This document shows positions 2,297-63,955 of a stretch of 64,000 bases of DNA, one piece after another. Location: the NCBI RefSeq assembly GCF_009914755.1, contig NC_060926.1. One strand, written 5' to 3'. This DNA comes from the human T2T-CHM13v2.0 reference genome, Homo sapiens. Both the position numbers and the translations under genes were made by a program. How positions within the stretch are numbered: position 1 is the stretch's first letter; every line of letters begins with the position of its first letter. The notes under the pieces are model-generated. The model was not told where the DNA came from. It searched no databases and saw only the letters and a program-made list of their open reading frames with translations.

Positions 2297-3337
2297 ATTT
2301 TTGCCTATTTTTTAATCAGATGTTTTCTTTTGAGATTTTTTGTTGTTGCGATGTTTGAGTTCCTTGTATATTCTGTATATTAATTTCTCGTCAGATAAAT
2401 TGTTTGCAAATATCGTCTTCTTTTCTATAGGTTGTCTTTTCACCCTGTTGACTGTTTTTATTGCTGTCCAGAAGCATTTTCGTTTGTTATAATTCCACTT
2501 GTTTACTTTGCTTTTGTTGCCTGTATTTTTGAGATCTTATTCATAAAATCTCCCTAGACCAACATTCTGCAGTGTTTCTCCTATGTATGTTTTCTTCCAA
2601 TAATGTTATAATTTTAGGTCTTACATTTAGATCTTTAATGCATTTCGAATTGATTTTTGTATAGGTTGAGAAGTGGTAGTCTGGTTTTTTCATCTGAATA
2701 CGAATGTGCAGTTTTCCCCACACCATTTATGGAAGAGACTGTCTTTTCTCTAATAAATGTTCTTGGCACCTTTGTGAAAAATGAGTTCACTGTAGGTGTG
2801 TGGATTTGTTTCTGGGCTCTCTATTCTGTTCTCTTGGTCAGTGTGCCTGTTTTTATGCCAGCACCATGCTCTTCTGATTACTACAGCTTTGTAGTGTATT
2901 TTAAGACTGGCAGTGTGATGGTTCCAGTTTGTTCTTTTTGCTCAGATTCCTTTGGGCATTCAAGGTGTTTCATGGTATAATACAAATTTTAACAATTATT
3001 TTGATTTTTCTATGAAGAATGTCATTGGTTTTTTGATAGGGATTGGACCAAATCTGTAGGTTGCTTTGCATGGTATGATCATTTTAGCAATATTAATTAT
3101 TCCAATCCATGAACATAGATGTCTTTCCATTTGGTTTTACCCTCTTCAATTTCTTTTATCAGTGTTTTGTAGTTTTCCTTGTAGAGCTATTTTATCTGCT
3201 TGGTTAAAATTTATTCCTAGGTTTTTTTTTTTCTTAAGCTATTGTAAATGGGATTGCCTTCTTGAATATTTTCAGCTAGTTTATTGTTCATGTATAGAAA
3301 TGCACTAATTTTTCTGTGTTGACTTTGTATCCTGCAA
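2297..3337 (-). mobile_element. Old L1 (L1MA-like) ORF2 remnant, continuation of 1-749
   Basis: Antisense ORF2 similarity; ORF 2541-2726 contains [17 protein letters not shown]. Confidence 0.8.
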
Positions 3338-3354
3338 AAACCTTTCAATTTCTT

Positions 3355-3666
3355 TTTCTTTTTCTTTTCTTTCTTTTTTTTTTTTTTTGAGACAGTCTCC
3401 CTCTGTCGCCAGGCTGGAGTGCATTTGGCGCCATCTCGGCTCACTGCAACCTCCGCCTCCCCAGTTCAAGTAGTTCTCCTGCCTCAGCCTCTTGAGTAGC
3501 TGGAACTATAGGCATGCACCACCATGCCCTGCTAATTTTTGTATTTTTAGTAGAGATGGGGTTTCACCGTGTTGGCTAGGATGGTCCCTATCTCTTGACT
3601 TCGTGATCCACCTGCCTCAGCCTCCCAAAGTGCTGGGATTACAGACGTGAGCCAATGCACCTGGCC
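3355..3666 (-). mobile_element. AluSc-like SINE
   Basis: Full dimeric Alu with gtcgccagg and gacttcgtgatc diagnostics. TSD aaacctttcaatttctt (3338-3354) / aaagctttcaatttctt (3667-3683). Confidence 0.92.
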
Positions 3667-56909: not shown

Positions 56910-57590
56910 GTAAGAATTTATATTTTAGGTAACTCATATTTCAAATAGTTTTCACAGAATCAAGTGCAAATCATTATATATGTACCATGATACATACAGC
57001 TTTATAATGAAGAGAGAAGCGTGACAGAAGTAAAAGTCTATAGTAACTTTATAAACAAGATAATATTTGACATTAATGTTTTCTGAACGATATCAATGCA
57101 GGTCTAAAGGAATGCAAGCTGTAATATTCTACTTAAATATATTTATAAGCAATAATTTTATTTTGTGAATTTTGTAAAATTTTGTATTTAAAATTATTTG
57201 ACATTCCTAGTATTTGTACAATATCATGGTTTTTAACCTTGTCCTTATTTATAAATTATTTAGTTCAGTAAAATTTTCTGACTTTGACTTACTTCCATCT
57301 AAAAATCCTCTAGATAAACATGCATAATAAAAAGGTTAACTAAGACTATCAACTTGAGGTTTTTTTTCACTTTATTTTTTTTTCATTATTATACTTTAAG
57401 TTCTAGGGTACATGTGCACAACAGGCAGTTTGTTACATATGTATACATGTGTCATGTTGGTGTGTTGCACCCATTAACTCGTTATTTACATTAGGTATTT
57501 CTCCTAATGCTATCCCTCCCAACTCCCCACACCCCACCACAGGCACCAGTCTGTGATGTTCCCTGCCCTGTGTCCAAGTGTTCTCATTGT

Positions 57591-61424
<3,834 letters not shown>

Positions 61425-61487
61425 TATGATGTTAGCTGGTTATTTTGCTCGTTAGTTGATGCAGTTTCTTCCTAGCATCGATGGTCT

Positions 61488-62513
61488 TTACAATTTGGCA
61501 TGTTTTTGCAGTGGCTGATACCGGTTGTTCCTTTCCATGTTTAGTGCTTCCTTCAGGAGCTCTCGAAAGGTAGGCCTGGTGGTGACAAAATCTCTCAGCA
61601 TTTGCTTGTCTGTAAAGTATTTTATTTCTCCTTCACTTATGAAGCTTAGTTTGGCTGGATATGAAATTCTGGGCTGAAAATTCTTTTCTTTAAGAATGTT
61701 GAATATTGGCCCCCACTCTCTTCTGGCTTTTAGAGTTTCTGCTGACAGATATGCTGTTAGTCTGACGGGCTTCCCTTTGTGGTTAACCTGACTTTTCTCT
61801 CTGGCTGCCCTTAACATTTTTTCCTTCATTTCAACCTTGGTGAATCTGAAAATTATGTGTCTTAGAGTTGCTCTTCTCAAGGAGTATCTTTGTGGTGTTC
61901 TCTGTATTTCCTGAATTTGAATGTTGGTCTGCCTTGCTAGGTTGGGGATGTTCTCCTGGATGATATCCTGAAGAACATTTTTCCAACTTGGTTCCATTCT
62001 CCCCGTCACTTTCTGGTACACCAATTAAACGGGATTTGGTCTTTTCATATAGTCCCGTATTTCTCAGAGGCTTTGTTCATATCTTTTTACTCTTTTTTCT
62101 CTAAACTTTTCTTCTCGCTTCGTTTCATTCACTTGATCTTCAATCACTGATACCCTTTCTTCCACTTGATCGAATTGGCTACTGAAGCTTGTGCCTGCGT
62201 CACGTAGTTCTCGTGACATGGTTTTCAGCTCCATCATGTTATTTAAGGTCTTCTCTGTGCTGTTTATTCTAGTTAGCCATTCATCTAATCTTTTTTCAAG
62301 GTTTTTAGCTTCTTTGTGTTGGGTTCGAACATCTTCATTTAGCTCAGAGAAGTTTGTTGTTACCGATCTTCTGAAGCCTTCTTCTCTCAGCTCGTCAAAG
62401 TCATTCTCCATCCAGCTTTGTTCCGTTGCTGGCGAAGAGCTGCGATCCTTTGGAGGAGAAGAGGTGCTCTGATTTTTAGAATTTTCAGGTCTTCTGCTCT
62501 GGTTTCTCCCCAT
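61488..62513 (-). pseudogene. Disrupted L1 ORF1
   Basis: MGRNQSRR...ENDFDELREEGFRR (62064-62513) and ...ARREWGPIF...YPAKLSF...PLQKHAKL (61488-62024), separated by a stop/frameshift. Confidence 0.93.
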
Positions 62514-63547
62514 CTGTGTGGTTTTATTTACCTTTGGTCTTTGATGATGGTGACCTACAAATGGGGTTTTGGTTTGGATGTCCTTTTTGTTGATATTGAT
62601 GCTATTCCTTTCTATTTGTTAGTTTTCCTTCTATTAGTCAGGACCCTCAGCTGCAGATCTTTTGGAGTTTGCTGGAGGTCCACTCCAGACCCTGTTTGCC
62701 TGGGTATCACCAGTGGAGGCTGCAGAACAGCAAATATTGCAGAACAGCAAATGTTGCTGCCTGATCCTTCCTCTGGAAGCTTTGTCTCAGAGGGGTACCT
62801 GGCTGTATGAGGTGTCAGTCTGCCCCTACTGGGAGGTTTCTCCCAGTTAGCCTACTCAGGGGTCAGGGACCCACTTGATGAGGCAGTCTGTCAATTCTTA
62901 GATCTCAAACTCCATACTGGGAGAACCACTACTCTCTTGAAAGCTGTCAGACAGGGGCGTTTAAGTCTGCAGAAGTTTCTGCTGCCTTTTGTTCAGCTAT
63001 GCCCTGCCCCCAGAAGTGGAGTCTACAGAAGCAGGCAGGCCTCGTTGAGCTGTGGTGGGCTCCACCTAGTTCTAGCTTTCTGGCTGTTTTCTTTACCTAG
63101 TCAAGCCTCAGCAATGGCAGACGTCCCTTCCCCAGCCTCGCTGCCGCCTCGCAGTTCGATCTCGGACTGCTGCACTAGCAGTGAGCAAGGCTCTGTGGGC
63201 ATGTGACCCACCAAGCCATGTGCAGGATATAATCTCCTGGTGTGCCATTTGCTAAGACCGTTGGAAAAACGCAGTATTAGGGCGGGAGTATCCTGATTTT
63301 CCAGGTACCATCTGTCACGGCTTCCCTTGGCTAGGAAAGGGAATTCCCCGACCCCTTGCACTTCCCAGATCAGGCGATGCCCCACACTGCTTCGGCTCAC
63401 ACTCTGTGGGCTGCACCCACTGTCCAACAAGTCCCAGTGAGATGAACCCGGTACCTCAATTGAAAATGCAGAAATCGCCTGTCTTCTGCGTCGCTCATGC
63501 TGGGAGCTGTAGACTGGAGCTGTTCCTATTCAGCTTTCATGGAACTG
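62514..63547 (-). promoter_or_regulatory. L1 5'UTR (internal sense promoter and antisense promoter region), CpG-decayed, YY1 motif mutated
   Basis: GC-rich L1PA 5'UTR. The YY1 core CAAGATGGCC reads CATGAAAGCT at 63541-63532. Confidence 0.75.
63114..63206 (+). pseudogene. Truncated L1 ORF0 (30 aa)
   Basis: MADVPSPASLPPRSSISDCCTSSEQGSVGM* resembles the ORF0 N-terminus (MAGAPPPASLPPCSLISDCC...); premature TGA at 63204-63206. Confidence 0.75.
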
Positions 63548-63604
63548 AGAGGAAGCAATTATTTTTGAGGTTTAAGTGACTGCTAGTAAAGTGTATCTTA
63601 CAGT

Positions 63605-63745
63605 GTGGGGGATGAGGTGGCAGGAGTGGACTGAGTCGCTGAGGCCCATCCACTGTCGGTGGTTGGCGTAGTCACCGCAGCACAGGAAGTACTGGAGGCC
63701 CGAGTAGTTGGGCTGCTCATAGAGCATCCAGTAGCCACTGTCCAC
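63605..63745 (-). pseudogene. CRYGGP: Gamma-crystallin (gammaD/E/F-type) exon-2 fragment, codons ~38-84; probably the crystallin gamma G pseudogene fragment
   Basis: Translates [47 protein letters not shown] versus recalled [52 protein letters not shown] (40/47). GC-rich island with no exon 1 or exon 3. The symbol is from memory of the isolated human exon-2 fragment. Confidence 0.85.
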
Positions 63746-63829
63746 CTCAACTTGAGGTTTTAACATAAACTTCCTAACTATCAAAGTAAGATATTTCTCA
63801 AGTAAACAAATAAATGAGCAAATGGGTGA

Positions 63830-63955
63830 ACGGGTCAATATGAGAATGCTAAAATGATACTAATTAGAATGCAGAAAAACAGGTTTGGATATGAAACAGT
63901 TGAAATTCTCATACATTGCTGGTGTGAATATAAAATGGTATGGCCATTTTAATAC
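63830..63955 (+). mobile_element. Old L1M fragment
   Basis: gaaattctcatacattgctggtgtgaatataaaatggtatggccatttt. Confidence 0.6.

What the first reader, a model, noticed from the sequence alone, without database searches (positions are those of the whole stretch)
63548..63607. Crystallin homology stops at the exon-2 donor; the 57-bp linker is a barcode for the source L1
Seen: on the minus strand ...CTCATCCCCCAC (His84) is followed by ACTGTAAGATACACTTTACTAGCAGTCACTTAAACCTCAAAAATAATTGCTTCCTCT and then the L1 start. Known (recalled): gamma-crystallin exon 2 ends after codon 84, and this linker does not resemble exon 3 or begin with GT. Inference: exon 2 was spliced to a cryptic acceptor ~57 nt upstream of the source L1. 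The linker ends in TC/AAAAATAATTGCTTCC, a TTTT/GA endonuclease-type site, which may be the source element's own 5' TSD.
Basis: partly seen in the sequence, partly recalled or inferred. Interest (0 to 1): 0.7.

Follow-up and report, generated by a model that had tools for sequence, protein, structure and literature searches.

The report
Spliced crystallin exon carried by L1
The CRYGGP pseudogene is a piece of a gamma-crystallin exon that was spliced onto a short stretch of that gene's own intron and then copied to chromosome 2p16 together with a full-length L1 retrotransposon in one jump, a rare but already described kind of event.

Summary
On the minus strand a 15-bp target-site duplication (63761-63747 and 57363-57349) encloses, in order:
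- one extra G
- 141 nt of gamma-crystallin exon 2
- a 51-nt linker
- 6 unmapped nt
- a full-length, decayed L1 with an A-rich tail

The target site reads TT|AAAA, so this was one L1 insertion event.

Crystallin homology stops exactly at the exon-2 donor (CAC|GTGAGT in all six CRYG genes). The linker has a single other match in the T2T genome (47/51 nt). That match lies 758 nt downstream of the exon-2 donor, co-oriented, in intron 2 of the gene I take to be CRYGEP. It follows ctcttctaattacAG, and the skipped piece is GT...AG. The unspliced-intron and unrelated-locus readings are both refuted.

No L1 lies at the donor site today. The site reads CCTC|AAAAAGAATTGCT|CATGAG, and the paralog I take to be CRYGFP supports it as ancestral.

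Best reading (0.62): a sense L1, since lost, sat in CRYGE intron 2. A host transcript spliced exon 2 to a cryptic acceptor 51 nt upstream of it, and the chimeric RNA retrotransposed.

Main rival (0.28): RNA or reverse-transcriptase recombination without a resident L1.

This class was catalogued in 2026 (17 cases). CRYGGP is not among them. Verdict: new member of a known kind.

The parts
63747..63761 (-). 5' target-site duplication, AAAACCTCAAGTTGA on the minus strand. It is preceded by TT, giving a TT|AAAA L1 endonuclease site.
   Evidence: the repeat finder family D9, 15/15 identical to 57349-57363; sequence.
63746..63746 (-). One extra G at the 5' junction. It belongs neither to the TSD nor to the CRYG sequence (the genes have C there).
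   Evidence: read directly.
63605..63745 (-). CRYGGP: the 3' 141 nt of gamma-crystallin exon 2 (codons 38-84, second Greek-key motif), 5'-truncated within the exon. It ends exactly at the exon-2 splice donor and keeps TAC at codon 56.
   Evidence: 91.5% identity to the D-type gene and 90.1% to the E- and F-type genes. Pfam Crystall PF00030, E = 3.3e-12. Alignment.
63554..63604 (-). 51-nt linker copied from intron 2 of the gene taken as CRYGEP (G000:C2:208591536-208591486, minus strand). In the donor it begins directly after a cryptic 3' splice site.
   Evidence: 47/51 identical. Sole genomic match. 758 nt GT...AG skipped. The E-type structure is shared, whereas the F-type gene has about 133 extra nt and the D-type gene has no homolog.
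63548..63553 (-). TCCTCT: six bases between the linker and the L1 that match neither the donor intron nor the L1 5' end of the other copies. Unexplained filler.
   Evidence: A genome pattern search for this junction found only the window itself and one unrelated chr10 copy.
57364..63547 (-). Full-length L1 (L1PA5-like or slightly older) starting CAGTTCCATGAAAGCT|GAATAGG, with a degenerate A-rich tail at about 57364-57384. Its reading frames are broken into many pieces.
   Evidence: 5' end aligned with 29 other full-length copies. 898 nt of 5'UTR match other copies at no more than 90% with no large gap. Stop-to-stop ORFs of at most 326 aa. Tail.
57349..57363 (-). 3' target-site duplication.
   Evidence: D9.

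Best explanation
CRYGGP is the 5' leader of a single L1 retrotransposition event that happened very roughly 20-40 million years ago.

**Shown**
- One 6,383-bp unit (exon-2 fragment + 51 nt of intron + 6 nt + full-length L1 + A-tail) was inserted by target-primed reverse transcription at a TT|AAAA site, producing a 15-bp TSD.
- The RNA template had been spliced. The canonical exon-2 donor of a CRYGE-type gene was joined to a cryptic acceptor 758 nt into that gene's intron 2.
- Reverse transcription, or 5' repair, stopped inside exon 2.

**Inferred**
- A sense-oriented, coding-competent L1 then sat in CRYGE intron 2, immediately after ...AAAAAGAATTGCT, 51 nt downstream of the cryptic acceptor.
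- Transcription entering from upstream read into it.
- The L1's own polyadenylation signal defined a long terminal exon, which activated the cryptic acceptor.
- The chimeric RNA was copied in cis by the proteins it encoded.
- That source allele never became fixed, or was lost, leaving the empty site seen today.

This is the cis-splicing / 5'-transduction route described for RAP1GDS1/L1PA2.
For: **One event.** The TSD is 15/15 and lies at the outer edges of the composite. There is an A-tail and a TT|AAAA target.

**Splicing.** Homology to all six CRYG loci ends at CAC|GTGAGT. The linker starts right after ...ctcttctaattacAG in the donor gene, and the skipped 758 nt are GT...AG. Only 7.8% of positions in that intron follow an AG, and 2.1% follow an AG with at least 60% pyrimidines upstream.

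**Donor gene.** The linker is 47/51 identical to the E-type intron. It shares that intron's structure against the F-type gene (about 133 extra nt) and has no homolog in the D-type gene.

**Genomic contiguity of linker and L1.**
- The L1 is complete to within a few bases of the family's 5' end.
- Homology to the empty site stops 13 nt after a TC|AAAAA motif. Only 4.5% of positions in that intron have a YY|AAAA motif 7-20 nt upstream. Among 29 genuine L1 5' junctions, 9 have YYAAAA and 17 have AAAA, scanned over a wider 28-nt stretch upstream. I judge the likelihood ratio at about 3-7.
- The linker-L1 junction is not a splice site, since the donor has GCT|CA, not GT. Trans-splicing onto the L1 therefore cannot explain it.

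**Precedent.** PMC13174262 (sections and Table S5 read) reports 17 mRNA/L1 5'-transduction chimeras.
- Most of them carry near-full-length L1.
- Several have short unmapped bases at the L1 junction.
- Most have no surviving source L1.
- One, RAP1GDS1, has a verified intronic source L1 whose cryptic acceptor lies 15 bp upstream.
Against: - No L1 is present at the donor site in this assembly. The sequence across the site is continuous and agrees with the F-type paralog, GCT(C/T)(A/T)TGAGAATC.
- The six bases TCCTCT are unexplained.
- No second insertion carries the linker.
- No other L1 shares this copy's CCATGAAAGCT variant (0 others at up to 1 mismatch).
- No L1 is closer than 90% over the 5'UTR among the 40 of 7,660 candidates that were scored. 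No sibling or source was therefore found.
- The endonuclease-site argument is post hoc and modest.
- Gamma-crystallin genes are lens genes (recalled), so their transcription in germline or early embryo is unexplained.
- Only one human genome could be searched.
Confidence: 0.62

Rival explanations
1. No L1 ever sat in CRYGE. A separate, aberrantly spliced CRYGE RNA (exon 2 joined to the cryptic intron-2 exon) was joined to a full-length L1 RNA from another locus. The joining happened either when the L1 reverse transcriptase jumped templates on reaching the 5' end of the L1 RNA during insertion at 2p16, or by RNA ligation before reverse transcription.
For: - The donor site is empty and looks ancestral.
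- Six unmapped bases sit exactly at the junction, as could arise from untemplated addition before a jump.
- Both mechanisms are documented for U6/L1 chimeras: PMC6789731 (search listing and abstract only) and PMC13174262 (introduction and Figure 7 legend).
- For cases without a source L1, the authors of PMC13174262 also keep recombination between two RNAs open.
Against: - Known switch or ligation chimeras have a full-length abundant small RNA joined at its 3' end to a usually 5'-truncated L1 (PMC13174262). Here the L1 is full length and the partner is a rare transcript joined at an internal intronic position.
- A random join point would have a YY|AAAA motif 7-20 nt upstream only 4.5% of the time.
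- The cryptic acceptor has no obvious reason to be used without a downstream terminal-exon signal (inference).
- PMC13174262 itself disfavours template switching where splice junctions are present.
Confidence: 0.28
2. Two unrelated events or a DNA-level rearrangement. Either a crystallin DNA fragment was already at 2p16 and an L1 later landed beside it, or a segmental copy of CRYGE suffered a 758-bp deletion.
For: Wistow 2012 (PMC3554465, passages read) describes the fragment only as 'a translocated remnant ... apparently associated with a line'.
Against: - The 15/15 TSD brackets the crystallin fragment and the L1 together. No TSD brackets the L1 alone.
- The 'deletion' has the canonical exon-2 donor and an AG acceptor as its exact edges.
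- No CRYG flanking DNA, such as intron 1 or upstream exon 2, is present.
Confidence: 0.03
3. The linker is unspliced intron 2, and the GTAAG three bases after His84 is the donor.
For: The bases ACTGTAAGA after CAC contain a donor-like GTAAGA.
Against: All six CRYG genes have GTGAGT directly after CAC, followed by unrelated sequence. The linker maps 758 nt further down the intron.
Confidence: 0.01

Closest known systems
RAP1GDS1/L1PA2 chimeric insertions (PMC13174262, 2026)
   Same: Host exon 2 is spliced to a cryptic acceptor a few bases upstream of an intronic sense L1 (15 bp there, 51 nt here). The chimeric RNA is retrotransposed with a near-full-length L1, one TSD, an endonuclease motif and an A-tail.
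   Different: - There the source L1 survives in intron 2, has a 5'UTR deletion and produced two offspring. Here the donor site is empty, the 5'UTR has no large deletion and only one offspring exists.
- There the leader reaches the transcript start. Here it is truncated inside exon 2.
MAP3K13/L1PA5 and FHIT/L1PA4 chimeras, and the other entries of Table S5 of PMC13174262
   Same: - Exons end at splice donors and are fused in sense to full-length L1.
- The TSD is 14-17 bp.
- No source L1 is found in the host gene.
- Several entries have short unmapped bases at the L1 junction.
- The MAP3K13 L1PA5 starts ...GGTTCCAAGATGGCCGAATAGGAACAGCTCCAGTC, the same 5'-end type as here.
   Different: - In those cases the exon abuts the L1 directly, so trans-splicing is possible. 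Here 51 nt of the host's own intron lie between the exon and the L1, which argues for genomic contiguity.
- CRYGGP is not in that table: 0 occurrences of 'cryg' or 'crystallin' in the text and in the 6 supplementary files held. Its only chr2 insertions are at 116.3 and 169.3 Mb.
SVA exon trapping / 5' transduction (MAST2-SVA_F1)
   Same: An upstream host exon is spliced onto a retrotransposon transcript and mobilised by the L1 machinery. From the review PMC4859970, passages read.
   Different: The carrier there is a non-autonomous SVA and the acceptor lies inside the element (recalled). [quoted passage not shown]
U6/L1 chimeras (template switching or RtcB ligation)
   Same: A two-part insertion in the same orientation within one TSD.
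   Different: There a full-length U6 is joined at its 3' end to a mostly 5'-truncated L1 (PMC13174262). Here a fragment of a spliced pre-mRNA is joined to a full-length L1.
CRYGGP as described in print (Wistow 2012, citing Brakenhoff et al. 1990)
   Same: The same locus: an isolated motif-2 fragment on 2p associated with a LINE.
   Different: The passages I could read do not mention the splice to an intron-2 cryptic acceptor, the TSD or the E-type origin, and they call the fragment gamma-D-like. Brakenhoff 1990 is not held, so I cannot say what it reports.

Membership tests
L1 target-primed reverse transcription insertion | Target-site duplication flanking the whole insert | tested here: met
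   15/15 at 57349-57363 and 63747-63761.
L1 target-primed reverse transcription insertion | 3' A-rich tail and TT|AAAA-type endonuclease target | tested here: met
   The tail GAAAAAAAAATAAAGTGAAAA lies before the 3' TSD. The 5' flank reads ...gtt|AAAACC.
Spliced mRNA/L1 5'-transduction chimera (class of PMC13174262) | Unique non-L1 RNA-derived sequence in sense orientation between the 5' TSD and the 5' end of a near-full-length L1 | tested here: met
   141 + 51 nt map to one gene in sense. The L1 starts within a few bases of the family 5' end.
Spliced mRNA/L1 5'-transduction chimera (class of PMC13174262) | The host part shows a splice junction or ends at a splice donor | tested here: met
   Exact exon-2 donor joined to an AG acceptor, with 758 nt GT...AG removed.
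Classical 5' transduction (source element identified) | A source L1 lies directly downstream of the transduced sequence at the donor locus | tested here: not met
   The donor site is empty in this assembly and is continuous with sequence shared by the F-type paralog. Other primates and ancestral alleles are not testable here. I therefore claim it works like a 5' transduction, not proven membership.
Template-switch / RNA-ligation chimera (U6/L1 type) | The 5' partner is a full-length abundant small RNA joined at its 3' end, and the L1 part is usually 5'-truncated | tested here: not met
   The partner is an internal piece of a spliced CRYGE pre-mRNA and the L1 is full length. Features taken from PMC13174262.
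Classical processed pseudogene | Copy of a mature mRNA ending in its own 3'UTR and poly(A) | tested here: not met
   There is no exon 3 and no CRYG 3' end. The exon-2 fragment is followed by intron sequence and the L1.
Beta/gamma-crystallin (Pfam PF00030) | Greek-key motif sequence | tested here: met
   47 codons hit PF00030 positions 39-82 of 82, E = 3.3e-12, 46.8 bits against a cut-off of 25. It is only a fragment and no gene; 8 of the 13 differences from the majority sequence of the D/E/F-type genes are CpG transitions.

The most novel reading that the evidence does not exclude
The insert is a dated fossil of a functioning host/L1 partnership.

- CRYGE was transcribed in germline or early-embryo cells when L1PA5-7 were active.
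- It still read Tyr (TAC) at codon 56. The TAG now shared by the genes taken as CRYGEP and CRYGFP arose later and spread between them by gene conversion.
- The resident L1 already carried the three substitutions that disrupt its 5'-terminal YY1-type box. It therefore depended on the crystallin gene's transcription and splicing to move.

This would be a second case of 'promoter co-option by a 5'-compromised L1', and the first from a tissue-specific gene with a short intron.
Probability: 0.15. Interest if true: 0.45.

Novelty: new member of a known kind. Interest (0 to 1): 0.3.

Why it matters
- It turns an oddly named 'pseudogene' into a fully explained object: a spliced host-gene leader carried by an L1.
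- It corrects the likely parent from gamma-D to the gamma-E lineage.
- It adds one case to a very small catalogue (17 in hg38) of L1 insertions that shuffled upstream host exons. In this case 51 nt of the host's own intron separate the exon from the L1, which favours cis-splicing into a resident intronic L1 over trans-splicing.
- It gives a time-stamped snapshot of CRYGE exon 2 before the stop codon at codon 56.
- None of this changes how L1 biology is understood.

Tried and rejected
**Siblings or a source element**
- Searched the genome with the crystallin-plus-linker stretch. The only linker match is the E-type intron.
- Searched for the private L1 5' variant CCATGAAAGCTGAATAGGAACAG. 0 other matches at up to 1 mismatch.
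- Searched for the TCCTCT/L1 junction with the variable bases as N. One other hit on contig C10 has an unrelated flank and its own A-rich target, so it is chance.
- Searched with 898 nt of 5'UTR. The best hit is 90%, none lies in the CRYG cluster, and only 40 of 7,660 candidates were scored.

**Explaining TCCTCT and the next bases as more donor intron**
- An alignment with a 12-nt gap can pair CATGAAAGCT with CATGAGAATCT of the E-type intron.
- The same bases match the L1 5' end of the other copies better, so I rejected this.

**A second splice at the linker/L1 junction**
- The donor has GCT|CATGAG, with no GT. Rejected.

**Linker homologs in the other paralogs**
- D-type gene: none of 18 nt or more at word size 7.
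- F-type gene: only the first 13 nt are contiguous.

**Dating**
- A star-tree branch length from 30 copies over 1,400 nt gave 6.8% (all sites) and 5.3% (non-CpG). The alignment was gappy (2,511 columns) and the copies were picked by 5'-end similarity, so this is rough.
- Exon-plus-linker divergence is too small a sample for more than '20-40 Myr'.

**Literature and earlier notes**
- Brakenhoff 1990 is not held.

Full report
**1. What is in the sequence**

Read on the minus strand, the region is a single composite insert:
- TSD AAAACCTCAAGTTGA (63761-63747)
- one extra G (63746)
- 141 nt of gamma-crystallin exon 2 (63745-63605)
- an L1 beginning CAGTTCCATGAAAGCT-GAATAGGAACAG (63547 downwards), running about 6.18 kb to a degenerate A-rich tail (about 57384-57364)
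- the same 15 bases again (57363-57349)

The repeat finder reports this 15/15 direct repeat as family D9, at exactly these edges. The base pair before the 5' TSD is TT, so the target reads TT|AAAA. These are the hallmarks of one L1 endonuclease/reverse-transcriptase insertion that includes the crystallin piece. No repeat pair brackets the L1 alone.

**2. The crystallin part**

It translates to [47 protein letters not shown] and then runs into [10 protein letters not shown]. The 47 codons hit Pfam Crystall, E = 3.3e-12.

A search of the window's own assembly found six exon-2 homologs on contig C2:
- three at 90-91% identity: 208604129-269, 208592295-435 and 209625326-466
- three at 77-81% identity

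From their order and spacing, and from the cytogenetic table in Wistow 2012, I take these three to be CRYGD, CRYGEP and CRYGFP. The names are my inference, because the loci carry no annotation here.

The 208592295 gene has:
- ATGGGGAAG as exon 1
- a 243-nt exon 2 with TAG at codon 56
- His84 as the last exon-2 codon
- an exon 3 about 3.75 kb downstream

In the alignment of all six genes, the window's homology ends exactly where each gene has CAC|GTGAGT.

Over the 141 nt, the window differs at 12 positions from the D-type gene and at 14 from each of E and F. D, E and F differ from one another at only 2 of 141. Of the 13 differences from the D/E/F majority, 8 are CpG transitions. That is the decay expected of a dead copy.

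**3. The linker**

The 51 nt at 63604-63554 have one other match in the genome: C2:208591536-208591486. It lies on the same strand as, and downstream of, the E-type exon 2. Identity is 47/51.

In the donor gene the match is preceded by ...aagtaccaactcttctaattacAG. Exactly 758 nt, beginning GT and ending AG, separate it from the exon-2 donor. In that intron 7.8% of positions follow an AG. Only 2.1% follow an AG with at least 60% pyrimidines in the 20 nt upstream; the site used has 65%.

A boundary at the canonical donor on one side and at an AG acceptor on the other is the signature of RNA splicing. It is not the signature of a DNA deletion or of an unspliced intron. The donor-like GTAAGA inside the linker is also present in the donor intron and is incidental.

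The paralogs differ at this site:
- The F-type paralog has the same acceptor and the first 13 nt, then about 133 nt that E lacks, then a much more diverged counterpart of the rest.
- The D-type gene has no homolog of 18 nt or more.

The parent was therefore a CRYGE-lineage gene, even though the exon alone looks marginally closer to D. The two extra exon mismatches to E are E-specific or E/F-specific changes, one of them the TAG.

**4. The L1 and its junction**

Of 29 other full-length copies retrieved with the junction region, 26 read GGTTCC/GTTCC/AGTTCC + AAGATGGC(C/T) (one of them ...GAC) just before GAATAGG, 3 of them as ggCAGTTCC. The other 3 (L020, L021, L037) are diverged there. The window's L1 is therefore complete to within a few bases. 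It carries three substitutions in the ten bases that correspond, from memory, to the YY1 box.

The six bases TCCTCT between linker and L1 match neither partner.

Other features of the L1:
- It is broken into many short frames.
- It has no large 5'UTR deletion. 898 nt align end to end with other copies at 88-90%.
- It has a star-tree branch length of about 6.8%, or 5.3% at non-CpG columns, against about 5-6% for most comparators (a rough estimate).
- Its 5'-end type (GGTTCC..., CTCCAGTC) is that of the element called full-length L1PA5 in Table S5 of PMC13174262. The L1PA2 and L1PA4 entries there read GGAGCC.

With L1Pa5 peaking about 25 Mya and L1Pa7-3 spanning 30-10 Mya (PMC7449397, passages), I date the event loosely to 20-40 Mya.

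**5. The donor site today**

After the linker homolog the E-type intron continues CATGAGAATCTTCCCTAAAGAAG, and the F-type gene has TTTGAGAATCTCTCCTAAAGAGG. The site is unbroken and ancestral, and no L1 is there.

Homology between insert and donor stops 13 nt after CCTC|AAAAAG. That is what a 13-nt TSD at a TC|AAAA endonuclease site would give. The frequencies are:
- Random positions in that intron with a YY|AAAA motif 7-20 nt upstream: 4.5% (12% for any AAAA).
- The 29 genuine L1 5' junctions, scanned over a wider 28-nt stretch upstream: 9 have YYAAAA and 17 have AAAA.

This is a modest, post hoc likelihood ratio of roughly 3-7.

**6. Mechanism**

*Shown*
- A single TPRT event.
- A spliced CRYGE-type RNA as part of the template.
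- 5' truncation in exon 2.

*Inferred (0.62)*
- The L1 was physically downstream of the linker, in CRYGE intron 2, on an allele that was later lost.
- The cryptic acceptor was used because the L1's polyadenylation signal created a terminal exon.

The arguments for the inferred steps:
- The L1 is full length and abuts intron sequence at a non-splice junction.
- The join sits at an endonuclease-type site.
- A cis arrangement removes the need for a rare lens-gene transcript to meet an L1 particle by chance.
- The same architecture has a surviving source in RAP1GDS1, where the cryptic acceptor lies 15 bp upstream of an intron-2 L1PA2 (PMC13174262).

*Main rival (0.28)*

The rival is recombination of two separate RNAs, by template switching or by ligation. 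It is supported mainly by the empty site and the six orphan bases. It fits poorly with what such chimeras usually look like.

Two-step or DNA-level origins and the unspliced-intron reading are excluded.

**7. What is known**

- Wistow 2012 (PMC3554465, passages) lists CRYGGP at 2p16.3. It describes it as an isolated fragment similar to gamma-D motif 2, 'apparently associated with a line' and 'merely a translocated remnant', citing Brakenhoff 1990. I could not obtain that paper.
- A full-text search for CRYGGP found 5 papers. I read only Wistow's passages.
- A search combining crystallin, LINE-1, transduction, chimeric and pseudogene found 1 unrelated review.
- Hancks and Kazazian 2016 (PMC4859970, passages) call L1 5' transductions almost non-existent. 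They document retrotransposition of upstream exons 'at least for SVA'.
- PMC13174262 (2026; passages, section 13, Table S5 part 1 and the chr2 rows) then catalogued 17 such L1 insertions in hg38.
  - CRYGGP is absent. There are 0 occurrences of 'cryg' or 'crystallin' in the main text and in the 6 supplementary files held. The only insertions on chr2 are at 116.3 and 169.3 Mb.
  - I did not read parts 2-3 of Table S5 row by row beyond those searches.

The kind of event is therefore known. This instance and its anatomy appear not to be in the literature I could search.

**8. Verdict**

- Observation: confirmed.
- Novelty: new member of a known kind.
- Interest: 0.3.

Noticed in passing
window 63532-63541 (minus strand): The ten bases that correspond (recalled) to the L1 5'-terminal YY1 box read CATGAAAGCT, against CAAGATGGC(C/T) in most of the 29 other copies. 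That is three substitutions, two of them transversions. This variant occurs nowhere else in the genome at up to 1 mismatch. Whether the source element already carried it cannot be told.
   Followed up: partly
L004/L008 and L003 (loci taken as CRYGEP and CRYGFP), exon 2 codon 56; window 63689-63691: E and F share TAG at codon 56, while the D-type gene and CRYGGP have TAC. D, E and F are 98.6% identical over the last 141 nt of exon 2, but the E and F introns are only about 90.5% identical. This suggests exon homogenisation and a stop codon that arose or spread after the retrocopy was made.
   Followed up: partly
L008, minus-strand positions about 1075-980 (CRYGEP intron 2): A patch of about 95 bp resembling the L1 3'UTR, in sense orientation, replaces the middle of an antisense Alu roughly 0.5 kb downstream of the linker site. 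It is not adjacent to the linker and is probably unrelated, but it is odd.
   Followed up: no
L008, minus-strand positions about 1477-960 (CRYGEP intron 2): A block starts 24 nt after the linker homolog. It consists of a (TA/TG/GA)n microsatellite, about 170 nt of unique sequence, and an antisense Alu. It is flanked by CCTAAAGAA direct repeats and is absent from the F-type gene. It looks like a separate retro-insertion with extra 3' sequence.
   Followed up: no
L041 about 3251-3383, against L039 (E orientation) at about 2476: A ~133-nt indel separates the E-type and F-type introns inside the linker homolog. It is bordered by similar short motifs, ACTGTAAGAT and AATGTAAAAT, which suggests a slippage-type deletion in E.
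   Followed up: partly
L011 (G000:C22:40577-40652) and L014 (G000:C4:42031-42106): These two full-length L1 copies near contig starts have identical 5' flanks. They are probably one insertion duplicated between subtelomeric regions, so the 29 comparators represent 28 independent insertions.
   Followed up: no
window 63601-63604: The RefSeq CRYGGP span (63601-63745) extends 4 nt past the end of exon-2 homology into the intron-derived linker.
   Followed up: yes
window 63572-63859 (minus strand): A 95-codon stop-to-stop frame runs from the upstream flank through the crystallin fragment into the linker. There is no sign that it is anything but chance.
   Followed up: no
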